A stretch of DNA of 64,000 bases from contig OZ241867.1 in assembly GCA_965203175.1 (NCBI GenBank), forward strand, positions 1,984,001 to 2,048,000. Reading direction: 5' to 3'. A program made the translations under genes and the position numbers. This document shows positions 38,646 through 55,067 of this stretch, one piece after another (position 1 is the first letter of the stretch; every line of letters begins with the position of its first letter). Source of the DNA: Candidatus Latescibacterota bacterium. Lineage in GTDB: Bacteria; Latescibacterota; UBA2968; UBA8231. The notes beneath the pieces are model-generated. The model searched no databases. It was not told where the DNA came from and worked only from the letters and a program-made list of their open reading frames with translations.

Positions 38646-40835
38646 CTAGGTGGTACGTTGGGCGGCTTTTACCTCTCTGCGCCGCTTGTGCAACACGTTT
38701 TCCGTATATCCGTTCGGTTCGGTGCGACCGTTGAATACTAGGTCCAGCGCCGCTTGGAATTCGACGCTGGCGTCGAGGTCGGGGGCCATGGGGCAGTACG
38801 CTGGGTCGCCGCTGTTTTGTGCGTCTACGACTGAGGCCATGCGCGCAAAGGTCGCCCGCACCTGCTCCTCGTTGGTAATTCCGTGGTGCAGCCAGTTGGC
38901 GATGTGCTGGCTGGAAATTCGCAAGGTGGCGCGGTCTTCCATCAGGCCGATGTGGTTGATGTCCGGCACCTTGGAGCAGCCAATGCCCTGGCCGACCCAG
39001 CGCACCACGTAGCCCAAAATCCCCTGGACGTTGTTGTCCAATTCCTGCTGAATTTCCTCGGGACTGAGCGAGCGATCGAGCACCGGGGGACTGAGAATCG
39101 CGCCGAGCGAGGCTCGCTCCCGTCCGGCTAGCTGGCCGAGGCGTTCGAAGACATCGACTTGGTGATAGTGCAACGCGTGCAAGGTGGCCGCTGTCGGCGA
39201 AGGCACCCAAGCGGTCGTCGCCCCAGCTTGGGGATGGCCTATCTTGGTCTCTACCATCTCGCGCATCCGCTCGGGCATGGTCCACATCCCCTTGCCGATC
39301 TGCGCTCTTCCCACTAAGCCGGTGGCGATGCCGACGTCCACATTCCAGTCCTCATAAGCACTGAGCCAGGGCTGCTCTTTGATTTCCATCTTGGGCAACA
39401 TGGGGCCTAGTTCCATGCTGGTGTGGATCTCGTCCCCGGTGCGGTCGAGGAAGCCGGTGTTGATGAAGACGACGCGTTCGGCCGCGCAGCGGATGCACTC
39501 GCTGAGGTTGACTGTGGTGCGGCGCTCCTCGTCCATGATGCCGATTTTCAGGGTGTTTTTGCTCAGCCCCAGCGCCTCCTCCACTCGCGTGAAAAGTTCG
39601 ACGGTCGCTGCTACCTCGTCCGGTCCGTGCTGTTTGGGCTTCACCACATAGACGCTGCCGGTCTTGCTGTTGCGGTAGCGGCCGCGGCCTTTGAGATCGT
39701 GGATCGCCGCTAAGCTGATGACCATGGCGTCGAGGAAGCCCTCGGGGATTTCCGCGCCGTCGGCGGTGGTCACCGCATCGGTGTACATGTGGATGCCGAC
39801 GTGGCGCACGAGCAATAAGCTGCGCCCGGATAGTGTCAGGGTGTGGCCGCTGGGTGTGGTAAATGTGCGGTCGGCGCGCAGGCGGCGCGTCAGGGGCTGC
39901 CCGTTCTTGACAAAGATCGCCTCCAGCGTGCCCTGCATCAGGCCGTTCCAGTTGCCATAGACGAGGACCTTGTCCTCGGCATCGACCGCGGCCACGGAAT
40001 CTTCGCAATCTTGGATGGTGGTAATGGCCGCTTCTAAGAGCACGTCTTTGACGCCAGCGCGGTGGGTGCGCCCAATGGGATGGGTGCGGTCGATTTGGAT
40101 CTCGATGTGCAATCCGTTGTGGCGGAGTAAGACGCTGCTTAGCTGCCCGCCCTCGCATCCATAGCCGACGAACTGTCCGGCGTCTTTGAGGCCGACCTCG
40201 TCACCGCTTGCGAGGCAAGCGCGCAAGGTTTGTCCACCGGCGTCCTCACGTAGGAAAAACTCTACCACCTCTCGGTACGCGCCCTGTTGGAGGCCCGCGA
40301 TCGCGTCGAGAAATGCCTCGCTGCGCGCGATGACTTGGGCACCGCGCTCGGCGTCGTACTCGCCTGCCGGGACGCGGCCTTCAATTACATCCGTGCCGTA
40401 CAGGGCGTCGTACAAGCTGCCCCAGCGCGCATTCGCCGCGTTGAGCGCGTAGCGCGCATTGTCAACTGGGACGACTAGCTGGGGGCCGGCTAGGGAGGCG
40501 ATTTCTGGGTCGGTGTTTTCCGTGCGGATTCGCTGCGCGTCGCCCGTGGGTAGTAAGTAACCGATCTCTTCGAGAAAGGTACGGTAACTTGTGGGATCTA
40601 ACCGCTCGCCGCGCCGCTGTTGGTGATAGGCGTCAATCTGGGCCTGCAAGGCGTCGCGGCGCTGAAGTAGCTGTTGATTTTTTGGCCCTAAGTCTTGGAC
40701 GATTTTCTCCAGCGCCGCCCAGAAGTGATCGACATCCACGTCCGTTCCGGGCGCGATCTGCTCGGCGACGAGGGCATAGAGCCGCTGGTCGATGTGCAAT
40801 CCGCCGCTGGTTACTTTTCTTGCTGATTCCGCCAT
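38646..40835 (-). CDS. glcB: Malate synthase G
   Basis: [73 protein letters not shown]. Confidence 0.97.
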
Positions 40836-40966
40836 GATGTGCTCCGTTTAATTTTGCCGAGCAAGAGTATAATCATTTATGGCGCGGGCGACCTATGGAC
40901 AGGGTGGATGGGATTTGGATAGCTTGTAGGCACTAGCGCATAACAACACTATCGCAGGAGGAGACC

Positions 40967-41881
40967 ATGAACTACGACCCATGCCAACGCACCTTTGACT
41001 GCGAGCCGACGCTCACCGACTCCGAGGTTCTCGAATTCTGCCGCGAGGGCCACCTATTGCTCAGAGGCGTCGTGCCCGACGAGATCAACCAGCGCACCTG
41101 TGCTTGGATCGACGGCGATATTCCCGCCAACCCGAGCTATATCCCCGACGGCCTGACCGAGGCTGACCTCGACCGCATCCGCTTTACCCACGAGCCGACC
41201 TCCATCTTCTTGGAGGACTGGTTCATCGAGCACGTCTTGCTCAATCCGCAGTTGGCTGGTGCCATGCGCTCGCTCTTAGGCCCCAACATCGGCCTGCCGG
41301 TCTTGGCCAGCCACCACCGGGCCGAATGCCCAATGGAAGCCCAGCGCTGGCACCAAGACGCCGACCACATCTATGGCCCGGAGGTGCGCTTTTTGGAGGT
41401 CTTCTACTTTCCGCAGGACACGCCCGTGGAACTGGGGCCGACCGAGTTGGTGCCTGGCTCGCACATCCAACCTGGTGGTCACCGCGACGAAGAAGAAGGG
41501 GGCGTGTTTTGCGATGGCCCGGCCGGCACCATTGGGGTTCACCATCAGAGCATTATGCACCGCCGCGGCAAATCCACCGCCGAGGGGCTGCGCCGGATGC
41601 TTAAGTACAATTACTGGCGCACGGCACCTCCCCAGCGCGATTGGATCGTCGAGGAGGACTTTGATTTCCAGAGCGCGTATTACGGCGGGCACCGCACGGC
41701 GCGCTACTACGCCCACATGTTCTACTGGCTCTGCGGCAAGGGCGATCAGTTCCGCGTTATCGGCGGTCAGGCTTGGCCTTGGCAGACTGAGAATCAGATC
41801 GGGCCGTCGTATGGCTTTGACGCCGAGGAAGGCTACCAGCCCAATTGGCGGCGGGATAATCCGGACGGGTATGCGCGTTGA
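40967..41881 (+). CDS. PhyH-family dioxygenase
   Basis: WHQD, YFPQDT...GPTELVPGSH, IMHR; AGGAGG RBS. Confidence 0.85.
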   Translation: MNYDPCQRTFDCEPTLTDSEVLEFCREGHLLLRGVVPDEINQRTCAWIDGDIPANPSYIPDGLTEADLDRIRFTHEPTSIFLEDWFIEHVLLNPQLAGAMRSLLGPNIGLPVLASHHRAECPMEAQRWHQDADHIYGPEVRFLEVFYFPQDTPVELGPTELVPGSHIQPGGHRDEEEGGVFCDGPAGTIGVHHQSIMHRRGKSTAEGLRRMLKYNYWRTAPPQRDWIVEEDFDFQSAYYGGHRTARYYAHMFYWLCGKGDQFRVIGGQAWPWQTENQIGPSYGFDAEEGYQPNWRRDNPDGYAR

Positions 41882-42000
41882 TTGGTTGGACGGGTGGCGT
41901 TGATGAGGCAGTGGCCGCCTCCAACAGGAGGGACCATTGCTACGAGAGGCAGGGGCAGGGCACCGGCCCGGCGGGTGTGGGGCGGTACTGATTAAATCCA

Positions 42001-42338
42001 CATTCCCCGTCTAACTACGGGAGCCTCCGCGCTCGTCGAGCGAGCTTTGGCAGAACCCGGATCTATTCACGGGGGGATACACCCTGCCCCTGCTGAGAAT
42101 GGCGAACGGAAGAGACGCGAAGCCCTGTTGCTGATTCGCTGAAGGGCTCCCGGTGCTGAGTGGTTAGCCGCTAGGTCGTTGAGCGGCTTTGCCGGATAAT
42201 TGGGTTATCAATCCCTGAGGTCGCGCGTTACAGTGCGCGCCGAGTCTGGGCTATGCGCCGTCACCGGCGCAGTCGCACTTGCTCCCCTGTCTCTTCCGTG
42301 CGGCCACAACAAGTGTGGCCGGACTGCTCTAGTTGTCC
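42001..42338 (-). ncRNA. Candidate structured ncRNA immediately downstream of DIP1984-like gene
   Basis: 11-bp long-range stem ACGGAAGAGAC (42106-42116)/GTCTCTTCCGT (42289-42299) enclosing at least 5 hairpins; GNRA loop and G-U pairs fit the minus strand; boundaries approximate. Confidence 0.6.
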
Positions 42339-42875
42339 TTACTGTTCGTCAGCATATTCTACCTCTACCTCGAACGACGCGGCGCGGATCTGCCGATTGA
42401 GCTGGCGGAACTCGACGCGCGCCTCGTTGAGACGGGTGCGGCAGTCGTCGTAGGGCAACTCGTTGTCCTCGACGATGTCGCGCTCCTCCTTGTGGAGGAT
42501 CCGCTCATAGGCAGAATCGACGACTTGGGTGTGCAGTTCTCCGAGGCGGTCGTTGAGCGCTTTGCGGGTCTCAAGGGCCTCGGTGAGGCTCATGTCGTCG
42601 CCCCCGTGTTCAACGCGATGCTCGAAGTTGGCACGCTGGATCGCGGCGTTCAGTTTGCGGCGTTTGAACTCGAGGGAGCGCAACTGGTTGCGCGCCTCGG
42701 AGATACTGAATCCGGGTGCTGGCCGGCGCGAGGAGTCGTTGTCTCGACGGGAGAATAGGTCTCGATTCTGGCGCGCCTCGGGTAGGCAGTCGCGCAGCGT
42801 CTTGATGCGGGCGTCGTATTCGCCGCGCAATTCTAGGGCTTCGTAGAGTCTGATGGTCTTTCTGGCTTCGGTCAT
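42339..42875 (-). CDS. DIP1984/DUF6847-like coiled-coil protein
   Basis: LYEALELR...IQRANF / LTEALETR...IRAASF internal two-fold repeat typical of this family; AGGAGG RBS. Confidence 0.7.
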   Translation of the reverse strand: MTEARKTIRLYEALELRGEYDARIKTLRDCLPEARQNRDLFSRRDNDSSRRPAPGFSISEARNQLRSLEFKRRKLNAAIQRANFEHRVEHGGDDMSLTEALETRKALNDRLGELHTQVVDSAYERILHKEERDIVEDNELPYDDCRTRLNEARVEFRQLNRQIRAASFEVEVEYADEQ

Positions 42876-43079
42876 ACCTCACCTCCTTCTAGTTTCACCG
42901 GGAGATGAGTCGAAATTCGAGGGGATGTAGAACAGTCGCAATAGTTCGGCGACTTTTTTGTGTGGGTACCTGCTCAGGTGACACCTTGCTGATCATTTCG
43001 GTCTGCTGGCTAGTTGTTTTGAGTAAGCCAATGGCTCACCTTTTAAGCATATGATTGAGAGCATTCGATGGAGGAAGGC

Positions 43080-43271
43080 ATGAGTGAAATCGGTGGCAAG
43101 ATTATAGACGGGTTGCGCGATGCACTGAAGTATGCAGAAGGCGAGACGGAAGACAATAAAGAGCATCACGTCTTAATACCTGAGCGCGTCGATGTGCGGG
43201 ATGTGCGTCAACGGCTCAATATGACTCAGAATTTGCATAGTTCTTCGGACTCAGCGTCTACCCGTACTTAA
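43080..43271 (+). pseudogene. Truncated HigA-like HTH antitoxin/regulator
   Basis: IIDGLRDAL...VDVRDVRQRLNMTQ breaks off at the start of the HTH; no toxin upstream. Confidence 0.6.
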
Positions 43272-43341
43272 TACACGGCTGCTTCAGGCGGTATTATGCC
43301 TATTGGCGGCCACCAACCCTGTCTCTTGAGGAGAATCTGCG

Positions 43342-44457
43342 ATGAGCGATAATCAGAGGGCACAAACCGCTGAAGCTCTCTTGGATGCATTCAGTCAACA
43401 GGTCCCACTACGTCCCGAGCGCCTGCCGACCTTTATGGAGATTACACGTTATCCGCATTACGAGGATGTGTGCAGCAACATTCTTGCTTTTTTCTTTGAT
43501 CCAGATAATCCGCACGGGCTCGAAACGCTGTTCTTGGATGCTCTTGCACAGGTTGGCGACATTGAGGATAAAGCAGGGACGCTAGGTCGCAATGTTCAGG
43601 TAGGCCGGGAAGATCCCACCGATGCCGGGCGTATCGATATTCTCATTCAGTCCGATAGCCACGCGGTCCTAATCGAGAATAAGATTTTTCGGCCCGTTGA
43701 CAATCCACTCGACGACTATGCGAAGTACCTTGATTCCTTGCCACAATGCCACAAATACAGGTTTCTTCTCACTCTTAAGCCTGTAGACGAAAGTACCAAA
43801 CGCGATATCGAATGCTATGGGTTTCAGAATATCACACACGAGGATTTGGCAAACGAAATCCGCGGGCTTCTCGGGGTCTACGTTGCCAACGCGGATACTC
43901 GTTATCTCACGTTCATGCTTGATTTTCTAAATACACTTGACTATTTGCCGGAGGATATGGCTATGGATCAGAAATTTATTGACTTCCTCAAGAACCGTCC
44001 TGAAGGAGAGGTTGAAAATTTTCTCAACCAAATCAACGAGTTCAAGAAAGGACTCCGCAAACAAATTGATTTGCTTGAGGAGCGAATTGATGTCAGCTCC
44101 TACGATAACGTAAGCCCGAGTAGGTATCGAGAGAGTAACAACCTTTTTGATGTTCTCGCGTATGACATCACACTTTCTTTTTTCGAGAACAAGGTTGTGG
44201 TAGAAACGGTCATCGACTGCAAAGGTTGGAAAGTCCAGATCTGGCTTCGGAGAGGCGCAGGGGGTGGACCGGTTACCAATCCTGGCCGACGTGAAGAGTT
44301 GCTAACGCTGCTGCGTCGTTTGGGTATTCCGCTTAAGAAAGAGGAAGGCAAGCGTTTCCTGCTGGACAGTTCCGAAGATGTGGCAAATTTGAATCAGATT
44401 GTTCGGATCGTCCAAGGCGTCTTGGATAAGCTCGCCGACAGCGACGGTACTTCTTAG
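43342..44457 (+). CDS. PD-(D/E)XK nuclease family protein
   Basis: EDVCSNILAFFFDP..PHGL, GRIDILI, VLIENKI. Confidence 0.8.
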   Translation: MSDNQRAQTAEALLDAFSQQVPLRPERLPTFMEITRYPHYEDVCSNILAFFFDPDNPHGLETLFLDALAQVGDIEDKAGTLGRNVQVGREDPTDAGRIDILIQSDSHAVLIENKIFRPVDNPLDDYAKYLDSLPQCHKYRFLLTLKPVDESTKRDIECYGFQNITHEDLANEIRGLLGVYVANADTRYLTFMLDFLNTLDYLPEDMAMDQKFIDFLKNRPEGEVENFLNQINEFKKGLRKQIDLLEERIDVSSYDNVSPSRYRESNNLFDVLAYDITLSFFENKVVVETVIDCKGWKVQIWLRRGAGGGPVTNPGRREELLTLLRRLGIPLKKEEGKRFLLDSSEDVANLNQIVRIVQGVLDKLADSDGTS

Positions 44458-44628
44458 CTGGAGTGCAGTGTTGTCTCCAGCCCCTCCCACTTCGGGTCTT
44501 CTTTTGCCATCCATCCACGAATCTGTCGGAGTGATTCGACATCTTCGGTCGCCTGCCCGCCCGGCATTGTATAGCCGCTGAATCATCCCGCGTAACTACT
44601 CGGGAAACACCTTTTCTATAGTGCCCAC

Positions 44629-47600
44629 CTATCGGCGGCTATCAGAAGGCATTCCAGCGATTACTTCCACCAGTTCCGCCACGACGGCCACCTCGCCCTC
44701 GTCGGCGCACGTGAGGACGATGGGCTCGAACTCGGGATTGGTCGGCTTCAACGTGATCTTGGCGTGCTGCCATGAGTTACCGTCTTGGATCTTCTTACTT
44801 TCGTATCGCTTGAGGGTGTACCGCGCCCCGGTCTCGGGGTCGATAGCGTCGTGGAGTTGAACCAGTACCGTCTTACCCTGGCGTGTGCCCTCTACGGGGG
44901 CGCGGAACAAACCATGTGCTCCGTTGGGGACCGTGGGTTCCATTGAGTGGCCCACGATCTGCGCGACGAACATCCCCGGTCGCAAGCGGTGTGCAGAATC
45001 CACCTCGACCCACTCCCAGTCCTCCTCGGCTGCCACGTTCTGGGGGTTGCCGAACTCGCCAGCCGCGATTGCAAGCGGCACGAGCGGAACACAAGTGACG
45101 TAACGCTCGTCGGGCTTAGCGGCGACGATGCGCAAAGCAGGCGGCGAGGCCGCGTCAAGTTGGGTCGCATCCACATCCCGGAGCCGCTGGTACGCCTGAG
45201 ACGTCAGCCACTCGCTCACTAACTGTTGAAACGGTTGGTCGTTCATGTAGCGGACGAAGATCTCCTCGTTCTGGTCCATGCGCTCAACGAAGAGTCGTTC
45301 CAGAAGGTTCCTGAACACCAACTCGAATTTGTCCTCTGGGTTCACGGCGGCTGCTTGGCGTAATCCATCGTCACTCATGGCAGCTTCGACGATCTGATCG
45401 AAAAAGAGCTGATCGGCCTGATTGAAGTCGGTACCGAAGCGTTCATTGACAACGTCAATGAGCTGCGAAAGCGGCACTGACTCCTCATGTACAGCGCCGC
45501 TGCCGACCTCGGTCGGCCCATCCAGAGCGTGCGCGTCACCCCCCGCGAGGGAGATTGAGCCCTCACTGATCTTCTGGAGGCGGTAGTATTCAAGCCGCAC
45601 CTCGTCATCGAACTGATAGGCGGGACCGCTCCGGCGTCGTGGCAGCTTTGCCGCCAGATGACGCAGGAATACGTACAGGCGTTCGAGGTCCGAGTCTTGG
45701 TACGGGATGACCTGACTCAGGAAGCCGTAGAGGTTGCGAAAGGCTTGGATCTTTCCGCGCCAGAGTTCTGCTTCGTCCCCGTCGTCTTGCTGCAGGGCTT
45801 TAAAGCGCGACACCGCAGGATCGAGCGCGGCATTCATTGCTTGGTGATCTTGGGCGCTATGACGCTGCTTTGGCTTGAAATATACTTCACAGAACCGCTC
45901 GACTTCTTCATAGAGATAGATTCCGGCTGCGTCGAGTTCCCCTTTGACTGCGTACATGCGGGCGGGGTCGACCTCCGCTCCCATCTCCGCCCCTTCGTAG
46001 TAAACCTTGAACGCCTCGCGGATTTCTTCGCGGTCGTTTACGAAGTCGAGAACGAAAGTGTCCTCCTTGAGCGGATGTGTGCGGTTCAGGCGGGAGAGCG
46101 TCTGGACTGCTTGGATGCCAGCGAGCCGCTTGTCCACGTACATCGTGTGCAGGAGCGGCTGATCGAACCCGGTCTGGTATTTCTCCGCGACGAGCAACAC
46201 CTGATACTCTGGAGTTGCGAACTTCTCTGGAAGCTCCTTCTCTCGGATGCCTAGGTTCATCTTCTCCTCGGTATATGACTCGTTTGGGAGTTGGTCGTCC
46301 CGAACCTCTCCCGAGAAGGCTACCAGTGTTTTGATTGCGTATTGCTTCTTTTGGATGTAGCGATCAAAGCTCTGCTTGTATCGCACCGCTTCCAGCCGGG
46401 AGCCGGTGACCACCATGGCTTTGGCGCGGCCGCCGATCTTGTGGCGCGTGACGGCGTGGAAGTGCTCGACCATTACCTCGGTCTTTTGCGCGATGTTGTG
46501 GGGATGCAGGCGCAGAAAGCGCGCCAGCGCCAGTGCTGCTTTTTTCCGCTCAACGTTTGGATCGTCTTGGCACGCCTTAAGCAATTTGAAGTAGGTCGCG
46601 TACGTGGTGTAGTGCTTGAGCACGTCGAGGATAAACCCTTCCTCGATTGCCTGACGCATTGTGTAGCGATGGACCGGCTCTCCGTCTTGGCCGAACACGG
46701 CAAGGGTCTTGTGTTTGGGCGTGGCTGTAAAGGCGAAGAAACTTAGGTTCGCTTGCCGACCGCGTTTGGCCATGCTGCGGAACAGTTCTTTTTGGTCCTC
46801 GCGGCCTTCCTCCTCGGCGCGCTTCCGAGCCTCCTCCAGCAGGTCTTCGCCCCCGAGGATCTCCTTGAGATCTGTCGATGCCTCCCCTCCCTGCGAGCTG
46901 TGGGCTTCGTCGATGATGACGGCGCAGCGTCGGGTAGGCAGTACGCCTGTCCCCTCAATGCCTTGCTCCTCGGCCATCTTGAGCAACTGCTGCGACACAA
47001 AGGGGAACTTCTGTAACGTGGTGATGATGATTGGAACGGCGTTCTCTAGAGCCTCAGCAAGCTGTCGGGATCGCTCGTCGATTTTTTTCACGACACCGAG
47101 CTTGTGCTCGAACTGGTAGATCGTGTCTTGGAGTTGTTGGTCTAACACGACGCGATCGGTTACCACGATCACGCTGTCGAAGACGCGCTCGTTTGCCTCG
47201 TCATGCAAGGAAGCAAGTCGGTGCGCGAGCCAGCCTATCGTGTTGCTCTTGCCGCTGCCAGCCGAATGCTCAATGAGGTAGTTGTTGCCGATGCCCTCGC
47301 AGCGAGCCTTCTGCACCAGCAGTCGGACGGCATCAAGCTGATGATAGCGCGGGAAGATCATCGTTTCGGCCTTCACTTTGTGGCCGCGGTCGTCGCGCTT
47401 CTCTTCGGTCTGCAAGTGGATGAACCGGGCGAGCACATCGAGTAGGCTGTCCCGGGCGAGCACTTCTTCCCAGAGGTAGGCTGTCCGATAGCTACGGCCC
47501 GCCGGATCGTGCGGATTTCCGGCACCGCCATCACATCCCTTGTCGAAGGGCAGGAAGTGGGTTGCGTCTCCGGCTAGGCGCGTGGTCATGCGCACGCATT

Positions 47601-48186
47601 CGGTATCGACGGCAAAATGGACGAGTGTGCGGCGTTTGAACTCGAAGATCGGCTCGCGGGGGTCGCGGTCGTGCCGGTACTGGTGGATCGCATTCTCTAC
47701 CGTCTGCCCAGTGGGTGGGTTTTTGAGCTCCACTGTGGCGATGGGGATGCCGTTCAGGCTCAGCGTCACGTCGAGCGACTTCTCCGACTGAGGGGAGAAA
47801 CGGAGTTGTCGGGAGAGTCCGAGCCGGTTTGCTGCGTAGCGGGCTTCGAGTTCCGGGTTCAGTTCGTGGGCCGCCTTGAAGAATGCTGCGTGGAGCGTCC
47901 GTCCGTAGCACTTGAAGCCGTGGCGCAGGGTTGCGAGCGAGCCGTTGGCGTCCATCCACTTGCACAGGTCCGTAAGAATCTGCTCGCCGGTTTTATCGCC
48001 GTGGAGCGCTTCTAGCTTGGCCCATTCTACGGGCTGGGTTTCGCGGATGAAGGCGAGGACGGAGTCGGGGAAGATTGCGCGGTCGCGGTCGAAGCCTTCG
48101 CGGGGAATGGAGACATAGCCGTTCTGGAGCAGATGTGCTTCGATTACGGTCTCAAAGGCGGACTCGGAGTGCCTGCTAATGCTCAT
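44629..48186 (-). CDS. hsdR: Type I restriction endonuclease subunit R with C-terminal S24/LexA-like domain
   Basis: ELKN nuclease motif, [34 protein letters not shown]; start MSISRH. Confidence 0.93.
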
Positions 48187-48188
48187 GG

Positions 48189-48881
48189 CTACAACTGTCC
48201 TCCGGTACGGTGGACCGGGTTTTCGTTTACATCGAACGATCCCGCGTCGGTACCTACGAAAGCCTCTCTCAACCTTCGACGCATATCGACATCGTCGGCA
48301 AACACGGTCCACCAGATGGAGAACATGCCACGATTGACGGCCGTCTCGACGATCTGCTCACGCAATGATACATTGTTTTTTTGGCTAGCTAGACGATCAT
48401 GAGCGTTTTCCGCCATTTTCCATGCGTTGAACCGTGCCAGCCAGCGTCGATCAGAATCGGTCGGTTTTCGGCCCGCGTTTCCGGGAAACTTATCAAGGCC
48501 AGTCAGGGCGATAGTGTTTCGGGCTCGGACTTGATCGATGCCGACAAGATCGGGATGGGGTTGTACTAATCCGCCATTTACGTATTTGAACGCGCGAAGG
48601 GTGTTATCTTGGTCCGGCCAGTAGTGATCGCCAAGAGCCACATGTTTGGCCCCTTTACTCGAATTGCAGTGGACACAAGCAAGGAGGAAGTTGTCCCAAG
48701 AGTTCCGAAGTGTGGAATGACAAACTTTCGGCTGGATATGTTCGACCGCCAAGTGGGTTTCGATCTGTCGCTCGCAGTAGCTGCAGTAGTCGCCAATGCG
48801 GCACATTAGATCCACTCCGGCATTTCGGTAATGGGCATAAACGGTGGGAGCCCCTCCTTTATCAACCGGTCGCATCGTCAC
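48189..48881 (-). CDS. HNH endonuclease (PtuB/Septu-like)
   Basis: [29 protein letters not shown]. Confidence 0.85.
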
Positions 48882-50109
48882 CTACACCACGCAGCGTCTC
48901 TCGTTCTAACTTTAGTAGGGCCTGAAACGCCGGGTCATCACTGAATGGCATGGACAGTTCGTTCAGACGTTTTTCGGCTGCGGCTAGTTTAGCTGAATTT
49001 TTTTTAGCGTCTCGAAGTAAGCGAAAGTATTCTGCAGCGGCGTCCATCATATCGTGGTAACGCTTGCTTTTTTGAGGCATCTCGACGCCCATCACGTCCT
49101 CAGTGATGTCTTCGATACTTTTGTCCGCGTACTCGCCGAACTCATCGAAGTCAAGGTTGATGAGCTTCCCAAGTCGGAGAGCTTGGATCACGAAGGGTGA
49201 GTGCGTGGTCGCGATGAACTGGCAACGTGGAAAGGCTTCAGTCAGGTTGGGGATGATCTGCCGCTGCCACTTGGGGTGTAAGTGAAGGTCAATCTCGTCG
49301 ATCAGGACGACCGCCTCGGCTTCGGAGGCTGGGTCAGTGAAATTGGGGTTGGCCTGCGCGAGTCGCCGGGTCAGGTCCAATACTAGAGCTAGTATCCCGC
49401 GTTCGCCATCTGAAAGCTGACGGACCGGAATCGCCGTCGTACCTTGGTCAATCCAGAGTTGCGGGAGTTTTTCGTTACCAGGTCGTAAGTTCCCATAACC
49501 CGGAAGGAAACGCGCTATGGCATTCTCGCATGCGGCCAGCATGCGGTCGGCGGCCAAGTGTTCAGTCCGCATGGCCTGCTGGACCTTCAGCCAAGCACCG
49601 AACTCGCTGAGCCTCAGCTCCCGATTTGCGAAGGTATCCGCGAACGCCGCATTTACATCGCCCGAGGCGACGCCCTTCCCGGGAGTTCGTCTCGACGGCA
49701 CAGCTCGATTGGTAGAAAAGAACACTACGAGTGGTCGACCCTCTGGCTCGTCGCCGGAAACTGGTGAGGGGCTTTCGCCGATGAACTGCGTCTTCTGTGT
49801 CTGTGGCATGTCCGCTTGGCGCGGTCTGTGACGGAGGTAAACGTGATCGCGTTCGCCAATCCGAACATGGCACTCAAGCATCGTAACGTCAGCCCCGATG
49901 CGGATATCGTCGATCAAGAGCGCTTTGGCGTTGTTTTGTAACCCGTTCGCCCGTTTCACCACCGCCGAGAGGCAGACCCTCAGCGCATCCAGAACGCTCG
50001 TCTTCCCAACTCCGTTGACGCCGACGATGAGGTTGAAACCCGGCTGGAAGCGGAACTCGGCTGCCTTGATTACGCGGAGGTTGGCTAGCTTGAGACCTAT
50101 GACGATCAT
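48862..50109 (-). CDS. ABC-type ATPase (PtuA/Septu-like)
   Basis: GVNGVGKTS, QLSDGE, LIDEIDLHLHPKWQ, TTHSP. Confidence 0.85.
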   Translation of the reverse strand: MIVIGLKLANLRVIKAAEFRFQPGFNLIVGVNGVGKTSVLDALRVCLSAVVKRANGLQNNAKALLIDDIRIGADVTMLECHVRIGERDHVYLRHRPRQADMPQTQKTQFIGESPSPVSGDEPEGRPLVVFFSTNRAVPSRRTPGKGVASGDVNAAFADTFANRELRLSEFGAWLKVQQAMRTEHLAADRMLAACENAIARFLPGYGNLRPGNEKLPQLWIDQGTTAIPVRQLSDGERGILALVLDLTRRLAQANPNFTDPASEAEAVVLIDEIDLHLHPKWQRQIIPNLTEAFPRCQFIATTHSPFVIQALRLGKLINLDFDEFGEYADKSIEDITEDVMGVEMPQKSKRYHDMMDAAAEYFRLLRDAKKNSAKLAAAEKRLNELSMPFSDDPAFQALLKLERETLRGVGDDATG

Positions 50110-51227
50110 AAAGTGCTCCTTACGTCAATTTGCCCAGTCACGGCCGCCGCGATGAGAGCAGAGCGGCGTTCTTTGAGTAATTCGATGGTCCGATTCGTAA
50201 CCTTTCGCAGGTTATCAATGCCTATTGTTGACCCTGCGATAAACTCGACTATCTCTCTTTGCTCCAGAATCGGTGGAACGGGAATGCGCAGATTCTCAAT
50301 TACCTCCACAGCTAAACCCGGTTGAGCAGCAGATTGCGAATATTGATTCAGATTCATGGCAACCAGCAGTTCACTAAGCCACTTACTCTTGCACTTCTCG
50401 CCAGCCGTCACAACCACTGCGTGTTCTGATGCCCAGAATTGACCGGAGGCATAATGGATATTACCGCACAATGCCCCCTGTCGACCAATTAACACATACT
50501 CCCCTTCGTGTGAATATACCGAAGTAAAACCACGCAATCCGTTTCCCCCAAAAACTGGAAAATCGCCTTCAAGATCAATTAGGTTACTCGTGATTGGTTC
50601 GCCGCTCTTGAGTGTCGCGACTCGCTTTAGTGCCGTAACTTCCCAATGCACCGGAATTTCGCCCAGCCAGGGGATGCCGGAGTCGCGGAGTGGGACGTTT
50701 GGATCAAAGCCACGGGTGACGGCGCGGGTGATGAGCGCACGGCGCTTTTCGGCCAGCAACCTAAGTAATCGTTCTTTTTCCGATACCAGATCATCTATTT
50801 GTGCCGTCTCACGGTTAAGGTAGTCGGCGATGGTGCGCTGTTGGGGGATTGGCGGCACAAGCACATCCTTGGAGTAAGCCGTTTCGCGATTGAGGCCCGG
50901 AATTGCTGCCTCGTCCGTGCCTTCATCCAACTGCAAAGTCTGAAGCAGCCAGTATATCCAGCGTAAATGGTTCCGGCTGGTCGATTCGTCAATGAAGAAG
51001 GTCGTATCGGAAGCGAAGCACGGTTCCGCCGTCCAGTTGACCTTGCCATAAGAGCCTTTTCGCCCAATGATGATCGCCGGCGCTCTAGTGTTAGCTCTTG
51101 AAAAAGAGGCAAACGGTCCGTTGGAGCCAAACACACGAAAAGCACCATCTTGTGGTTCATCACGCGGCAACGTTTCTCCATAGCTTAAACGAGCGACAAA
51201 TTTCAGCTTTGCCCTCGCCCACATCAC
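50106..51227 (-). CDS. hsdS: Type I RM specificity subunit
   Basis: Two TRDs, PPIPQQ/PPILEQ, LITRAVTRG, DSGIPWLGEIP, ALIAAAVTG. Confidence 0.93.
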   Translation of the reverse strand: MMWARAKLKFVARLSYGETLPRDEPQDGAFRVFGSNGPFASFSRANTRAPAIIIGRKGSYGKVNWTAEPCFASDTTFFIDESTSRNHLRWIYWLLQTLQLDEGTDEAAIPGLNRETAYSKDVLVPPIPQQRTIADYLNRETAQIDDLVSEKERLLRLLAEKRRALITRAVTRGFDPNVPLRDSGIPWLGEIPVHWEVTALKRVATLKSGEPITSNLIDLEGDFPVFGGNGLRGFTSVYSHEGEYVLIGRQGALCGNIHYASGQFWASEHAVVVTAGEKCKSKWLSELLVAMNLNQYSQSAAQPGLAVEVIENLRIPVPPILEQREIVEFIAGSTIGIDNLRKVTNRTIELLKERRSALIAAAVTGQIDVRSTL

Positions 51228-53209
51228 GCCGTCACCTCCCTCAACAACCGCATGATCTTCTCTTCCGCTTCCTTCAGATCCGCGTCAATCTCTTCCAGCG
51301 GGCGCGGCGGCGTGTACTTGTAGAAGTGGCGGTTGAAGTTGATCTCGTAGCCGACTGTATCCTTGTCCCGGTCCATCCAAGCGTCGGGGATGTGGGGGAG
51401 CACCTCGCGCTCAAAGTAGATGTCGATGTCGTCCTTAAGCGGCACATTCTCAAAGTCGCGCAGCTCGGTGTCAGGCTCGTAACCTTTCTCCCGGCCATCT
51501 TTCCTAACCCGCTCGGCTTGCGGATCCTTCTCGGTGAAGACATCTCGGAAGAGCCTCTGTTCTACCTTCTTCCAGCGCGATTGGCGCTCACGCAGGAGAG
51601 CGGCAATACTCTTCCATGTCGCATTCCAGTCGTAGCTCGGCTCGCGTCCTAATTCCTTGTCGATGGCCTGCACGTCGTCGAGCAGGTACGGGCAGGCATC
51701 GAGAAAGCGGGACTTGTCTTCGATGGTCATCTGGTAGCGCAAGCGCAGGGGTTGCTCCACGGTCACGCGCGTGTAGCCGAAGTCAGCGTTGTCGAAGATC
51801 TTGGAGCGCTCGCCGTCCTCAAAGCGGCCGTATTGCCACACGATTTCCTCAATCTGCTCTGCGGCGATGTGGCGGCGCTTATCGCCGAGGCTGCGCTTGT
51901 TGTCTTCACTCCCGCCCGCGGTCCACAAGTCGCGGGCGTCAAGGAGCTGAATTTTCCCCTGTCGCCGCTGCTCCTTGCGGTTGGTGACGATCCAGATGTA
52001 GGTGCCGATTCCGGTGTTGTAGAACATTTGCTCCGGCAGGGCAACGATGGCTTCAAGCCAGTCGTTCTCAATGATCCACTTGCGAATGTCGCTCTCGCCA
52101 GAGCCAGCGCCGCCGGTAAAGAGCGGCGAGCCGCTGAACACGATGGCCAAGCGCGAGCCGTGCTTGTGCTCGTCCGGGCGTACTGGCTCAAACTTGTGGG
52201 TCATGTGCTGTAGGAAAAGTAGCGAGCCGTCATTCACTCGCGGGAGTCCAGCGCCGAAGCGGCCCTCGAATCCGAGCCTATCGTGTTCTCTCTGGATCTC
52301 ATTCTTCTGCCTCTTCCAGTCCACGCCGAAAGGTGGATTGGTGAGGAAGTAGTCGAAGGTCTCGTCCGCGAATTGGTCGTCCATAAGGCTGTCGCCGAAG
52401 CGGATGTTGTCGCCGCCGCCGTTGTGGTCAACCTGTTTCATCAACATGTCAGAGGCTGCGGTGGCAAAGGCGCGGTTGTTATAGTCCTGTCCATAGACGT
52501 AGAGCCGTGCAGCACTGTGGTGGTCTCGCAGGTAGTTTTGCGCCTTGGCCAACATGCCGCCGGTGCCGCAAGCGGGGTCGAGGAGCTTACGCACGGTGCC
52601 GGGTGTGGCGAGCAGTTCGTCGTCGTGAATGAAGAGAATGCTCACCATTAGTCGGATGACCTCACGCGGCGTGAAGTGGTCGCCCGCGGTCTCGTTCGCC
52701 AACTCGTTGAAGCGGCGGATGAGATTCTCGAAGAGAAGCCCCATTTGCTCGTTCGGAACTCTATCGGGATGCAGGTCAACGTCGCAGAACTTCGAGACGA
52801 CGAGGTAGAGGATGTTGGACTCGCGCATCTTCTCGATCTCAGCCTCAAACTCGAAGTATTCGAAGATGCGGCGCACGTTGGCCGAAAAGCCTTGGATGTA
52901 GCTGACGAGGTGCGGGGCGATATTGTCTGGATCGCCCTTGAGCTTCTCGAAATCGAGCGGCGAGTGGTTGTGGAAGCGCTGGCCGGCAGCCCTGTTCAAC
53001 CTAACGTCGAGCGCGTCGCCGTCGAGTCTGCCGCCCCAGCGGTCGTGCTCAGCCAGAATCTTGGACTTGGTCGGAGCGAGTACGCAGTCGAACCGCCGCA
53101 GCACGGTCATAGGCAGCATGACGCGCTCGTATTGCGGCGGGCGATAGGGACCGCGCAGCAGGTCGGCGATCTGCCAGATCAGGTTGGCGAAATAGCTGTG
53201 GTCAGGCAT
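51224..53209 (-). CDS. hsdM: Type I RM N6-adenine methyltransferase
   Basis: HFTPREVI, LDPACGTGG, NPPFG, MFYNTGI. Confidence 0.95.
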   Translation of the reverse strand: MPDHSYFANLIWQIADLLRGPYRPPQYERVMLPMTVLRRFDCVLAPTKSKILAEHDRWGGRLDGDALDVRLNRAAGQRFHNHSPLDFEKLKGDPDNIAPHLVSYIQGFSANVRRIFEYFEFEAEIEKMRESNILYLVVSKFCDVDLHPDRVPNEQMGLLFENLIRRFNELANETAGDHFTPREVIRLMVSILFIHDDELLATPGTVRKLLDPACGTGGMLAKAQNYLRDHHSAARLYVYGQDYNNRAFATAASDMLMKQVDHNGGGDNIRFGDSLMDDQFADETFDYFLTNPPFGVDWKRQKNEIQREHDRLGFEGRFGAGLPRVNDGSLLFLQHMTHKFEPVRPDEHKHGSRLAIVFSGSPLFTGGAGSGESDIRKWIIENDWLEAIVALPEQMFYNTGIGTYIWIVTNRKEQRRQGKIQLLDARDLWTAGGSEDNKRSLGDKRRHIAAEQIEEIVWQYGRFEDGERSKIFDNADFGYTRVTVEQPLRLRYQMTIEDKSRFLDACPYLLDDVQAIDKELGREPSYDWNATWKSIAALLRERQSRWKKVEQRLFRDVFTEKDPQAERVRKDGREKGYEPDTELRDFENVPLKDDIDIYFEREVLPHIPDAWMDRDKDTVGYEINFNRHFYKYTPPRPLEEIDADLKEAEEKIMRLLREVTA

Positions 53210-53266
53210 GAGTATGTACGTTCAAGAAGGTTATTGCCGTCCACGAATGCGTGATTAAGTCGTGGG

Positions 53267-53566
53267 TCATTTGGCTAACATTTCACCTAGACGACGGTTC
53301 CTCTCGACGCTGCTCTGGAAATGGGCCATAACCGAGGCTCGGGGCTTTTCTTGGATGCGGTTTTCAATGTATTCACGCATGGCCTCTGGTGACACACCGA
53401 GCAACCCCTCCTCCCGGCGATCCTTGAGAATAAGCGCTATGGACCCAACCAAATTCTCGCGTGCTTCGTCCCTAGTTTTGCCCTGACCATTTGCCCCAGG
53501 AATTTCGGGACAATAGGCAATATACCATTTCTCGTCCTGCTCGATAATCGCCGTAAACTCTTTCAT
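53267..53566 (-). CDS. HicB-family antitoxin-like protein, orphan
   Basis: YIAYCPEIPGANGQGKTRDEARENL; no hicA nearby. Confidence 0.75.
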   Translation of the reverse strand: MKEFTAIIEQDEKWYIAYCPEIPGANGQGKTRDEARENLVGSIALILKDRREEGLLGVSPEAMREYIENRIQEKPRASVMAHFQSSVERNRRLGEMLAK

Positions 53567-53734
53567 AGCGTGCGTTTAGCCTCTCTGTATTGGCTCTCGA
53601 AGTATGGTCAGGTCGGCTTATGCTTCAATAATGAGCTGTATCCTTCCAATAACGCCCAAATAGCATTGGCCAGCAAGCGAGAGATTGGGTTTCCAGAGCG
53701 GAGACGATGCCCAATGACGACGGTGCTTTTGGTT

Positions 53735-53835
53735 TCACTCCCGATTCGCTATGTGCAACTCCCACAACTGCTCGGGCGACACCTCGCTCGGCGCACCCAT
53801 GAGCGGATCCTGCGCATTCTGGTTCATCGGGAAGG
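53735..53835 (-). repeat. 101-bp copy of aspS 3' end (direct repeat of 56058-56158)
   Basis: Aligns by eye with 4 mismatches; the copy includes the stop codon. Confidence 0.9.
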
Positions 53836-53837
53836 TG

Positions 53838-54098
53838 TGTTGCCGACGCCCTCGCGAGCCTTCTGCACCAGCAGCCGGACGGCATCGAGCTGGTACTAAC
53901 GCGGGAAGATCATCGTACTTCCTTCCAGAGGTAGGCTGTCCGATAGCTGCGGCCTACCGGATCGTGTGGATTCCCGGAACCGCCATCACATCCCTTGTCG
54001 AAGGGCAGGAAGTAGGTTGCGTCGCCGGCTAGGCGCGTGGTCGTGCGCACGTATTCGGTATCGACGGCAAAATGGACGAGTGTGCGCCGTTTGAACTC
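53838..54098 (-). pseudogene. hsdR internal relic
   Basis: Matches hsdR 47283-47643 with substitutions, small indels and a deletion of about 97 bp. Confidence 0.85.
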
Positions 54099-54171
54099 AG
54101 GAATCTTGCTCTTGCGAACAGAAGCAGTCGGGGTCTCGCAGTTCCCAAGTCGCCTATTCGCCTCAACGACT

Positions 54172-54930: not shown

Positions 54931-55067
54931 TATGGTCTTCTTGGCTTACATGGATGAATTTGAGCCATACGCTGTCCAAGTGTCTGAAGTCTGTATCTGT
55001 TGACAGGAGTGCAGCCCCGCTTACGTGAGCCGTCGCGGCGATCCAGAGATCATTATAAATATATCGC

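What the first reader, a model, noticed from the sequence alone, without database searches (positions are those of the whole stretch)
42001..42875. DIP1984-like coiled-coil gene followed by a ~340-nt multi-hairpin RNA: candidate protein-ncRNA system at the edge of a defence island
Seen: right after the stop codon lies an 8-bp hairpin (42301-42321). An 11-bp perfect long-range stem (42289-42299 with 42106-42116) then closes a multibranch domain with hairpins at 42254-42271 (7 bp, GUGA GNRA loop on the minus strand), 42222-42239, 42195-42209, 42166-42188 (7 bp) and 42119-42150 (8 bp with a G-U pair valid only on minus). Loops and linkers repeat short C/A-rich motifs (CAAC, UCAGC several times). 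Further stems follow around GGGUGUAUCCC (42071-42090) and 42006-42042. There is no credible ORF, and it is far more structured than a terminator. The protein has a two-fold helical repeat and no catalytic motif. Inference: a co-transcribed ncRNA that forms an RNP with, or is regulated by, the protein, possibly stress- or defence-related given the adjacent island.
Basis: partly seen in the sequence, partly recalled or inferred. Interest (0 to 1): 0.85.

Follow-up and report, generated by a model that had tools for sequence, protein, structure and literature searches.

The report
New structured RNA partnered with DUF6847 gene
A gene of unknown function is followed directly by a conserved, intricately folded RNA of about 195 bases that travels with it across several bacterial phyla, which points to an undescribed protein-plus-RNA module.

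Summary
It lies just 3' of a 178-aa divergent DUF6847/DIP1984 gene (42339-42875). It is single-copy, matches no Rfam 15 family and holds no conserved ORF.

A covariance model finds it in 32 of 132 genomes of the class (Latescibacterota). It also lies downstream of the gene, on the same strand, in 79 of 80 metagenome loci and 3 of 3 intact loci in another phylum. Where the gene is decayed, the RNA is decayed or missing.

Covariation supports P1, a hairpin with a GNRA loop (61 of 61), P3 and P4. A pseudoknot is only suggested. The 3' half is A-rich with about five spaced AGC motifs.

Three details need correcting:
- The conserved unit is about 195 nt, not 340.
- The hairpin after the stop codon is a strain-specific 28-nt insertion.
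- The distal stems are not conserved.

Canonical DIP1984 genes in at least four phyla carry a different stem-closed RNA in the same position, also absent from Rfam.

Function is untested. My best guess is a dedicated RNA-protein complex (about 0.5).

The parts
42339..42875 (-). 178-aa divergent DUF6847/DIP1984-like gene with an internal two-fold repeat and a strong AGGAGG ribosome-binding site upstream
   Evidence: ORF. Pfam PF20935 41.8 bits (cut-off 27), two stretches. NCBIfam DIP1984 39.7 bits, below its cut-off of 70. AF2 pLDDT 86.7. Foldseek 3kdq E 2.2e-5.
42301..42328 (-). strain-specific 28-nt insertion between the stop codon and the RNA, holding the 8-bp hairpin (42301-42321); not part of the conserved RNA
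   Evidence: Absent from the 7 same-genus sequences that cover this junction. 'Left out 28' at 42300 in contigs of runs X15 and X16. About 30 nt of it occurs at other places in relatives' genomes. No second close copy in the window's own genome.
42105..42300 (-). the conserved structured RNA (family modelled as R1), 196 nt
   Evidence: cmsearch 221.5 bits. One copy in the genome. No Rfam match. Covariation.
42289..42299 (-). P1, 5' strand (ACGGAAGAGAC); the core GAGAC is nearly invariant and the outer pairs covary
   Evidence: In one search, helix 2 is 99% paired and all 5 pairs of helix 1 show changes on both sides.
42106..42116 (-). P1, 3' strand (GUCUCUUCCGU)
42254..42271 (-). P2 hairpin, 7 bp, with a GNRA tetraloop (GUGA here)
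   Evidence: 100% of cells paired and 5 of 7 pairs with changes on both sides. The loop is GNRA in 61 of 61 distinct sequences.
42244..42253 (-). invariant single-stranded junction UAGCCCAGAC
   Evidence: Alignment columns 51-58 are invariant. GC[CU]CAG is present in 61 of 61 sequences.
42222..42241 (-). P3 hairpin with the loop motif CUGNRA (CACUGUAA here)
   Evidence: Pairs 65-80, 66-79 and 67-78 are kept, with 15 double changes at 65-80. Loop census.
42195..42215 (-). P4 (GAUA 42206-42209 with UAUC 42195-42198), plus a candidate H-type pseudoknot (GGG 42213-42215 with CCC 42202-42204 in the P4 loop)
   Evidence: P4 is 92.7% paired and 3 of 4 pairs show double changes. Pseudoknot: compensating variants GAG/CUC, GGU/ACC and AAGG/CCUU were seen by eye, but my shuffle test was not significant.
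42187..42195 (-). conserved junction CCGGCAAAG
   Evidence: Alignments. Mean identity 0.80 across the family.
42125..42186 (-). 3' domain: A-rich, U-poor, weakly structured in the family, with spaced AGC motifs (5 in the window)
   Evidence: AGC occurs 5.33 times per roughly 67-nt domain, against 1.39 in mononucleotide shuffles (maximum 1.69 of 200). Composition is A 39%, U 13%. Spacings peak at 8-9 and 15-17 nt.
   Evidence: Matches in G022 and G014 stop at about 42094 and run straight into the PhyH 3' end.

Best explanation
Window 42105-42300 (minus strand) encodes a member of a previously undescribed family of structured RNAs, about 185-198 nt long. The RNA begins a few bases after the stop codon of a divergent DUF6847/DIP1984 gene and is made as the 3' part of that gene's transcript.

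Anatomy, in order: a closing stem P1 (core GGAGAC/GUCUCC); a second stem layer (GGAGC/GCUCC); a strictly conserved 5' domain; and an A-rich, U-poor 3' domain. The 5' domain holds a GNRA-capped hairpin P2, the invariant junction UAGCCCAGAC, hairpin P3 with a CUGNRA loop, and helix P4 with a possible pseudoknot. The 3' domain carries about five AGC motifs at 8-9 and 15-17 nt spacing.

Shown: gene and RNA form one inherited unit. It is patchily distributed, occurs in several phyla and often sits in variable or defence regions.

Inferred, about 0.5: the RNA is the dedicated partner of the encoded helical protein, which is predicted to dimerise. The folded 5' domain would give specificity and the repeated AGC platform would give multivalent binding, in the way Y RNA serves Ro (recalled analogy). 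What the complex does is not known.
For: Real structure:
- MFE z = -3.27.
- On 61 distinct sequences, 91.4% of cells are paired against 82.5% in shuffles. 22 pairs show changes on both sides against 15.1 in shuffles (0 of 500 shuffles reach either value). Slid controls give 36-45% paired (the first structure behaves alike).
- Many G-U cells occur (for example UG 20 at pair 38-45 and GU 11 at pair 2-271). These fit only the gene's strand.
- The P2 loop is GNRA in 61 of 61.

Stronger constraint than on the gene: a 50-nt stretch of the RNA is 94% identical between two families whose genes are 65% identical at DNA level.

Linkage:
- The RNA is in 32 of 132 genomes of the class, one copy each.
- All 26 genomes of the phylum that hold this gene subfamily are among them (my cross-reading).
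- 24 of 29 loci have a long gene match upstream. The other 5 have a broken gene or none, and 4 of those 5 have a low-scoring or truncated RNA.
- 79 of 80 metagenome loci have the RNA downstream on the same strand. The 80th contig ends 102 nt after the gene.
- In another phylum, 4 of 401 genomes hold the gene. The 3 intact copies all have the RNA and the broken copy has none.
- The stop codon lies 5-17 nt from the GAGAC core in 63 of 67 cases.

Presence in RNA libraries: contigs of 4 of 4 runs laid cover the RNA. One 771-nt contig spans gene plus RNA, and one 181-nt contig lies wholly inside the RNA.

Protein:
- The fold matches 3KDQ only.
- 13 of the 39 invariant residues are Arg or Lys.
- Homodimer model: score 0.67, best of 3 controls 0.00. 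The mark was reached by 20 of 30 proteins solved as pairs of one chain and 1 of 23 solved as single chains. The runs agree in at least 96% of contacts and partner pLDDT is at least 85. The related entry 3KDQ holds 4 chains, so this pass may come from memory.

Motif platform: AGC occurs 5.33 times against 1.39 expected.

Parallel case: canonical DIP1984 genes carry another stem-closed RNA in the same position.
Against: - No experiment or computation here shows that protein and RNA touch. The complex tool takes no RNA.
- The protein is acidic overall by my reading of its sequence and has no known RNA-binding domain.
- Contigs cannot show RNA ends, strand or level, and RNA libraries can hold DNA.
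- The pseudoknot failed my shuffle test (3.86 against 3.79; 253 of 1000 shuffles reach the observed value).
- The alignments used for pair counts were fitted to the model, which favours its structure.
- Insertions of 28, about 110 and about 160 nt between gene and RNA are tolerated. Tight translational coupling is therefore not essential.
- Synteny would equally fit a purely cis-acting 3' UTR element.
Confidence: 0.5

Rival explanations
1. A purely cis-acting 3' UTR element. The folded domain ends and protects the mRNA. P1 would act as a terminator stem or a block to 3' exonucleases, or would couple mRNA fate to translation termination, because a terminating ribosome would cover the 5' strand of P1. 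No protein partner is needed.
For: - It always lies on the gene's strand, 5-17 nt after the stop in 63 of 67 cases.
- In a subset of AT-richer members P1 is followed by a U-run such as GUCUCCAUUUUU. 30 of 86 sequences have 7 or more U in the next 14 nt.
- One contig spans gene and RNA.
Against: - About 26 invariant positions, a GNRA loop in 61 of 61 and a likely pseudoknot are far more than a stabiliser or terminator needs.
- The scan finds no terminator-like site in the window, and most members lack a U-run.
- Insertions of 28 to about 160 nt between stop and P1 are tolerated.
- The RNA is better conserved than the gene it would serve.
Confidence: 0.22
2. A toxin-antitoxin-like or defence module. 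The RNA would neutralise or sense for the protein, as in type III TA systems. Loss or cleavage of the RNA, for instance on phage attack, would free an active protein.
For: - It is a compact two-part unit with patchy distribution: 11 of 30 genomes in the genus, 4 of 401 in another phylum.
- The neighbours fit. In the window: PDC-S26, type I R-M and Abi_C. In other loci, by my reading of ORFs, AbiEi/AbiEii-, HicB- and MNT-like genes.
- Gene and RNA decay together.
Against: - PADLOC has no match for the protein.
- There is no nuclease or other toxic domain.
- The RNA is not a tandem-repeat array and lies after the gene, not before it. The type III layout is recalled.
- It was not found in viral contigs.
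- RNA remnants occur without the gene (G019, G080). Lone genes without the RNA were not found. For an antitoxin this is neutral.
Confidence: 0.15
3. An RNA that acts on something other than its neighbour. It could be a small ribozyme, a ligand sensor, or a mimic or decoy of a cellular RNA. It would be kept next to the gene only because both serve one pathway.
For: - The junction sequences are invariant and the architecture is compact and pseudoknot-like, which is typical of catalytic or ligand-binding RNAs.
- The canonical DIP1984-linked RNA carries motifs that recall the D-loop (GGUAG, 11 of 15) and the T-arm (GGUUCGANUCC, 7 of 15) of tRNA. That resemblance is recalled, not tested.
Against: - No match to any Rfam ribozyme, riboswitch or tRNA model.
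- ARAGORN finds nothing.
- A riboswitch in a 3' position facing a convergent gene has no gene to control.
Confidence: 0.1
4. A DNA-level feature (a mobile-element end, recombination site or REP/MITE-like repeat), or a chance fold.
For: - Small insertions do cluster at the junction: a 28-nt hairpin here and a MITE-like element of about 110 nt in L206 and L207.
- IS200-like Y1 transposase genes lie beside 17 of about 90 loci.
Against: - One copy per genome.
- G-U pairs are strand-specific and a GNRA loop is conserved.
- Compensatory changes are seen in 22 pairs.
- No neighbour is universal apart from the DUF6847 gene.
Confidence: 0.02

Closest known systems
Y RNA with Ro/Rsr (bacterial YrlA next to rsr); recalled, not retrieved here
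   Same: A protein gene has a dedicated structured RNA encoded beside it. The RNA is closed by a long stem formed by its two ends and has a complex inner domain.
   Different: The protein is not a TROVE or Ro protein (Pfam finds only DUF6847). No Y_RNA or tRNA-like Rfam match exists. The RNA lies in the gene's own 3' UTR rather than as a separate gene.
Type III toxin-antitoxin systems (ToxIN, AbiQ); recalled
   Same: A two-part protein-plus-RNA module in defence islands, with short repeated motifs in the RNA.
   Different: There is no tandem-repeat array, no endoribonuclease fold and no PADLOC match. The RNA is downstream of the gene and has one elaborate fold.
Retron msr-msd RNA; recalled
   Same: An RNA closed by pairing of its ends, beside its partner gene, and common in defence islands.
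   Different: There is no reverse transcriptase next to it. The neighbours are PhyH and a PD-(D/E)XK protein. The gene order is also opposite.
Protein-sponge sRNAs (CsrB/RsmZ for CsrA, CrcZ for Hfq/Crc); recalled
   Same: Several copies of a short motif sit in an A-rich stretch. Here AGC occurs 5.33 times per domain.
   Different: The motif differs. The RNA is fused to a strictly conserved folded domain and tied to a single neighbouring gene.
Orphan gene-linked RNA motifs of comparative screens (PMC5737381 and PMC11109978; seen in the search listing only)
   Same: It was found by conservation and covariation next to a domain of unknown function, and its function is untested.
   Different: It matches none of the 4227 Rfam 15 models, which hold those motifs as far as they are curated.
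DIP1984 protein of Corynebacterium diphtheriae, PDB 3KDQ ('functionally unknown conserved protein')
   Same: Same fold: Foldseek E 2.2e-5, TM 0.61/0.69. Same Pfam family.
   Different: Identity is only about 21-22%. The window protein is 178 aa against about 150. It scores below the NCBIfam cut-off (39.7 against 70). Its RNA partner (R1) is not detected by the model of the canonical partner (R2), nor the reverse.

Membership tests
Pfam DUF6847 (PF20935) | score at or above the curated gathering cut-off of 27 bits | tested here: met
   41.8 bits, E 1.3e-10, two stretches on profile half 58-140.
NCBIfam DIP1984_fam (NF038048) | score at or above the curated cut-off of 70 bits | tested here: not met
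   39.7 bits. The protein is therefore a divergent subfamily, not a canonical DIP1984 protein.
DIP1984 fold (PDB 3KDQ) | structural match of the whole chain | tested here: met
   AF2 model pLDDT 86.7. Foldseek 3kdq_C E 2.2e-5, TM 0.61/0.69. The next hit has E 0.05.
Any Rfam 15 RNA family | cmscan score at the family's gathering threshold | tested here: not met
   The best overlapping hit is Ysr224 at 19.6 bits against a threshold of 70, and on the opposite strand.
Intrinsic (Rho-independent) terminator | short GC-rich hairpin followed by a U-run | tested here: not met
   0 terminator-like sites in 41800-43100. The hairpin at 42301-42321 has no U-run. A U-run after P1 occurs in only a subset of relatives.
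Dispersed repeat (REP/MITE) | many copies per genome | tested here: not met
   One full match in the 6.58-Mb genome. One model hit per genome in 32 genomes.
Type III toxin-antitoxin | tandem array of RNA repeats plus a ToxN/AbiQ-type endoribonuclease | tested here: not met
   TRF finds 0 arrays. There is no PADLOC match and the fold matches only 3KDQ.
Retron | reverse transcriptase gene adjacent to the RNA | tested here: not met
   The flanking genes are PhyH (40967-41881) and a PD-(D/E)XK/PDC-S26 protein (43342-44457).
tRNA / tmRNA | cloverleaf recognised by ARAGORN or Rfam | tested here: not met
   0 genes in 40000-45000 and no Rfam tRNA or tmRNA hit.
RNP (protein binds its neighbouring RNA) | physical, specific binding of protein and RNA | not testable with these tools
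Only synteny and co-decay are available.

The most novel reading that the evidence does not exclude
DUF6847/DIP1984 proteins as a whole are RNA-partnered. Each branch of this widespread family of unknown function would carry its own stem-closed RNA of 170-240 nt directly after its stop codon. R1 serves the 178-aa branch seen here. R2, which has motifs recalling the D-loop and T-arm of tRNA, serves the canonical branch. R2 is detected by model on a Picosynechococcus plasmid. On Acinetobacter baumannii and Enterococcus faecium plasmids I see it by eye only. Together these would define a new, broadly distributed class of bacterial ribonucleoprotein carried on mobile and variable DNA, possibly working through tRNA mimicry.
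Probability: 0.4. Interest if true: 0.9.

Novelty: categorically new. Interest (0 to 1): 0.82.

Why it matters
DUF6847/DIP1984 is a widespread family with a solved structure (3KDQ) but no function. In Acinetobacter plasmid records it is still annotated 'septicolysin'.

Two different branches of the family each keep an elaborate RNA, better conserved than the gene, directly behind the gene. This gives the first concrete handle on the family: look for an RNA-protein complex.

It also adds two sizeable structured RNA classes that are absent from Rfam 15. One has a GNRA hairpin, a likely pseudoknot and a periodic AGC platform. The other has tRNA-like motifs. Large bacterial RNAs with complex folds are rare, and past examples led to new biochemistry.

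The idea is directly testable with a 178-aa protein and a 196-nt RNA.

Tried and rejected
Known RNA families. Rfam found nothing at permissive thresholds on 41000-44000 and on 42090-42315. It also found nothing on the canonical loci. The one hit there was an unrelated T-box leader in L306.

tRNA/tmRNA, tandem repeats, promoters and terminators. ARAGORN found none. TRF found none. The sigma-70 and terminator scans found none; the organism may use other promoter types.

Small ORF inside the RNA. A GUG follows a GGAG in the 5' domain, but the reading frame depends on the variable GNRA loop. No frame is conserved. Rejected.

Hammerhead-like CUGANGA. This is a recalled motif. It lies inside helix P4 and there is no Rfam hit. 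Rejected.

Pseudoknot test. Mean best helix was 3.86 against 3.79 for permuted loops, and 253 of 1000 permutations reached the observed value. It is not significant, so the pseudoknot stays a candidate. The fixed-column count (helix 6) shows 84.8% paired, but only 1 of its 3 pairs has a double change.

3' domain helices. I dropped them from the structure.

Homology of R1 and R2. R1 with filters off gave only noise on 15 canonical loci. The best hit at the right place was L300 1925-2099 at 11.2 bits. R2 found nothing in the window or in four other R1 loci at E <= 0.1. A common origin is not shown.

Canonical loci, crude tests.
- Long-range stems beat at least 92 of 100 shuffles in 9 of 15 loci and failed in 6.
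- An nhmmer profile trained on 9 sequences found 2 of 6 test loci.
- MAFFT plus alifold on mixed phyla gave no structure.
- R2 did not detect L305 (A. baumannii), L306 (E. faecium) or L300. For those three I have only motifs and stems seen by eye.

Viral contigs. A DNA pattern gave 3 chance hits with no model match. The protein alignment gave none. The window protein gave no match in plasmids.

Genome contigs pattern. The pattern was too loose. Of the 80 loci it listed, 6 were true by model.

RNA-library contigs.
- The contig of run X15 covering 42106-42557 has word depth 195.6, against 3.8 and 2.2 for the flanking contigs.
- The contig of run X17 (42114-42294) has depth 33.1, against 12.4 for the flanking contig.
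- Contigs of two studies stop near 42106-42114.
By the tool's own rules, contig depth cannot rank parts of a gene. I laid no DNA run for comparison. I therefore do not use these figures as evidence of a discrete or abundant RNA.

Weak or non-specific leads.
- The Atlas lead 'Siphovirus Gp157' (0.94) was not followed.
- PHROGs hits were weak and inconsistent.
- Neighbour clustering found no universal third gene.

Literature.
- 'DUF6847', 'DIP1984', 'PF20935' returned 1 paper, on an A. baumannii plasmid with no RNA content (passage read).
- 'septicolysin', 'Sipho_Gp157', 'Gp157' returned 82 papers. None of the 15 listed titles concerns an RNA.
- A search on Latescibacteria and structured-RNA terms listed nothing on this motif.
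- In the preprint 10.64898/2026.10.21.760802 I read passages by 'find' only. Its main text names DUF736 but not DUF6847.

Full report
WHAT IS THERE. The minus strand of 42339-42875 holds a 178-aa ORF behind a strong AGGAGG site. Pfam places it in DUF6847 (41.8 bits, cut-off 27). The match consists of two hits to the same profile half, so the protein is an internal duplication. It falls below the NCBIfam DIP1984 cut-off (39.7 against 70). PADLOC has no match and PHROGs gives only weak hits. An AlphaFold model (pLDDT 86.7) matches only PDB 3KDQ, a 'functionally unknown conserved protein' of Corynebacterium diphtheriae (E 2.2e-5, TM 0.61/0.69). The gene is convergent with a PhyH-family gene (40967-41881), which leaves 457 nt between them.

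CHECK OF THE OBSERVATION. The region folds better than all 100 shuffles (z = -3.27). It matches nothing in Rfam 15, even at E <= 10. It is single-copy in the 6.58-Mb genome.

BOUNDARIES FROM COMPARISON. Relatives in the same genus are 91-92% identical over gene plus RNA. A second family of the same class keeps a 50-nt stretch of the RNA at 94% identity, although its gene is only 65% identical at DNA level. Alignment shows three things:
- The conserved unit runs from the 5' strand of the long-range stem to its 3' strand (42300-42105).
- The hairpin right after the stop codon is a 28-nt insertion. The other members of the genus lack it, and so do RNA-library contigs.
- The sequence beyond 42094 is missing in G022 and G014.
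The element is therefore about 195 nt, not 340.

THE FAMILY. A covariance model (R1) finds one copy in each of 32 of 132 genomes of the class. Record titles place relatives in Candidatus Latescibacterota. All 26 genomes of the phylum that hold this gene subfamily have the RNA (my cross-reading). Of 29 loci, 24 have a long gene match upstream. In 22 of these the match ends within about 20 nt of the RNA. The remaining 5 have a fragmentary gene or none, and 4 of those 5 have a low-scoring or truncated RNA.

A metagenome scan with a protein alignment found 346 loci, of which the best 80 were kept. In 79 of them the RNA lies downstream on the same strand. The 80th contig ends 102 nt after the gene. 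Two short contigs binned to other phyla carry the pair. In the phylum of one of them, 4 of 401 sampled genomes hold the gene. The three intact copies are each followed by the RNA, and the broken one is not. Source names for the proteins include Deltaproteobacteria, Thermoanaerobaculia and Chloroflexi bins. A full-library search finds 143 clusters at 50% identity. The module was not found in viral contigs or plasmids.

STRUCTURE. The counts below are on 61 distinct sequences.
- 91.4% of cells are paired, against 82.5% in shuffles and 36-45% in slid controls.
- 22 pairs show changes on both sides, against 15.1 in shuffles. 0 of 500 shuffles reach the observed values.
- P1: the core is nearly invariant and all 5 outer pairs covary.
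- P2: 100% paired, with 5 of 7 pairs covarying. Its loop is GNRA in 61 of 61.
- P3: pair 65-80 is GC in 39 sequences, AU in 15 and GU in 4. The loop is CUGNRA.
- P4: 3 of 4 pairs covary.
Abundant G-U pairs fix the strand as that of the gene.

A GGG upstream of P4 can pair with CCC in the P4 loop, which would make an H-type pseudoknot. Variants GAG/CUC, GGU/ACC and AAGG/CCUU fit this. My permutation test was not significant, so the pseudoknot remains a candidate.

The junctions AAGUGCGA, UAGCCCAGAC and CCGGNAAAG are nearly invariant. The 3' third is A-rich (39%) and U-poor (13%), and it lacks conserved helices. It carries AGC 5.33 times per roughly 67 nt, against 1.39 expected. The spacings peak at 8-9 and 15-17 nt. 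No reading frame is conserved. One caveat applies to all these counts: the alignments were fitted to the model.

EXPRESSION. Six RNA-library runs hold 14-18% of the sampled words of a 1001-nt stretch. I laid four of them, from four studies, and all have contigs on the RNA. One 771-nt contig spans gene and RNA (42097-42898). One 424-nt contig spans the 3' half of the gene and the RNA. One 181-nt contig lies wholly within the RNA. This shows presence in RNA libraries and is compatible with co-transcription. It cannot show ends, strand or abundance.

CONTEXT. Upstream lies a defence island:
- a PD-(D/E)XK protein matching the PADLOC candidate PDC-S26 (43342-44457);
- a type I restriction-modification system (HsdR 44629-48312, an AAA_21 ATPase, HsdS, HsdM);
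- an Abi_C protein (54172-54930).
Core genes follow. On the other side are PhyH and, by my reading of its sequence, malate synthase G. In other loci the neighbours differ. By my reading of ORFs they include AbiEi/AbiEii-, HicB- and MNT-like genes. IS200-like Y1 transposases fused to a DnaA C-terminal domain occur in 17 of about 90 loci, and AAA ATPases also occur. Only the DUF6847 gene is constant.

MECHANISM. Shown: there is a structured RNA under stronger constraint than its gene, and it is inherited and lost together with that gene. Inferred: it is transcribed as the gene's 3' end and binds the encoded protein. Points in favour are the one-to-one linkage, the multivalent AGC platform, the many invariant Arg and Lys residues (13 of 39 invariant columns) and a predicted symmetric homodimer. 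The dimer scores 0.67 against 0.00 for the best of 3 controls. That mark was reached by 20 of 30 proteins solved as pairs of one chain and 1 of 23 solved as single chains. The runs agree in at least 96% of contacts and pLDDT is at least 85. The related entry 3KDQ has four chains, so the pass may come from memory.

The stop codon lies 5-17 nt from the P1 core in 63 of 67 loci (19 of 86 sequences were dropped because my script found no ORF). A terminating ribosome would therefore cover the 5' strand of P1. Insertions of 28 to about 160 nt show that this is not essential. In some AT-richer members a U-run follows P1, so P1 may also serve as a terminator stem there. Rival readings are a cis-acting UTR element, a TA-like or defence module, and an RNA with another target. 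They are listed separately, and none is excluded.

AN EXTENSION BEYOND THE WINDOW. Canonical DIP1984 genes (Pfam 130-183 bits) are also followed by a non-coding element. I saw this in 15 loci:
- two Latescibacterota genomes;
- three genomes of the phylum of G168;
- seven genomes of the phylum of G571;
- plasmids of Picosynechococcus sp. PCC 7117, A. baumannii AYE and E. faecium.
The three plasmids have gaps of 268, 322 and 316 nt without an annotated gene after the DIP1984 CDS.

The 15 loci share motifs: GGCG[AUG]G or AGCGAG in 15 of 15, GC[CU]CAG in 12, GGUAG in 11, GAGGGNGGG..GGGG in 9, and a T-arm-like GGUUCGANUCC in 7. They also share closing stems of 7-17 bp that differ in sequence.

I built a model (R2) from five actinobacterial sequences. 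It detects the element at the expected place and strand in seven further loci from three other phyla, including the cyanobacterial plasmid, with E from 7e-7 to 0.09. It does not detect L300, L305 or L306. On the 12 aligned sequences, 89.6% of cells pair, against 68.8% in shuffles. 46 of 61 pairs show changes on both sides, against 25.1 in shuffles. Slid controls give 35-45% paired.

Neither Rfam nor ARAGORN recognises it. R1 and R2 do not detect each other's members. They share only the position, the closing stem and the GC[CU]CAG motif. Two branches of one protein family thus each keep an RNA in the same place. This is the strongest indirect argument that protein and RNA work together.

NOVELTY AND LIMITS. 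I found neither RNA in Rfam 15, nor in the text searches, nor in the passages read. Function, binding, RNA ends and the pseudoknot all remain to be tested.

Noticed in passing
L056, L057, L298-L300, L307-L311, L313, L314, L304 (NZ_CP016482 162792-163250 and downstream), L305 (NC_010402), L306 (NZ_CP116550): Canonical DIP1984/DUF6847 genes are followed by a second stem-closed RNA of about 170-240 nt that is not in Rfam (model R2). It has motifs recalling the tRNA D-loop and T-arm. Covariation: 46 of 61 pairs show double changes. The model detects it in four phyla. In the A. baumannii and E. faecium plasmids I see it by eye only.
   Followed up: partly
window 42301-42328: A 28-nt insertion holding an 8-bp hairpin separates stop codon and RNA in this strain only. 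About 30 nt of it recurs at 1-2 other places in genomes of the genus (query positions 572-601). Its nature (small mobile palindrome or shared terminator) is unexplained.
   Followed up: partly
L206 and L207, 3034-3160: An insertion of about 110 nt lies between stop codon and RNA. It has terminal inverted repeats and a direct repeat GACGAATAAC on both sides, so it looks like a miniature transposable element. G036 has an insertion of about 160 nt at the same junction.
   Followed up: no
L267 1821-2894 and 16 other metagenome loci: Genes that fuse an IS200-like Y1 transposase domain to a DnaA C-terminal helix-turn-helix flank the module in 17 of about 90 loci. They are sometimes on both sides.
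   Followed up: partly
window 43342-55000: A defence island holds a PDC-S26-type PD-(D/E)XK protein, a type I R-M system with an inserted AAA_21 ATPase gene, a 1227-aa HsdR with a long C-terminal extension, and an Abi_C protein.
   Followed up: partly
window 43068-43271: A 67-aa ORF lies between the module and the island. Its end looks to me like the start of an XRE-type helix-turn-helix that then breaks off. It has no family match.
   Followed up: no
L052 (G019 665719-665877) and L051 (G080): These are RNA remnants without the gene. In G019 the copy lacks the P1 ends (model positions 10-187, 81 bits). In G080 the 5' domain is replaced.
   Followed up: partly
L058 (G094 C2 3426311-3426565): A 119-aa protein with a single DUF6847-like repeat sits in a different context. 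It has no R1 RNA.
   Followed up: no
L306 798-1028 (minus strand): A T-box leader (86.8 bits, just under the threshold of 93) lies upstream of a peptide ABC-transporter gene on the E. faecium plasmid. It is unrelated to the DIP1984 gene.
   Followed up: no
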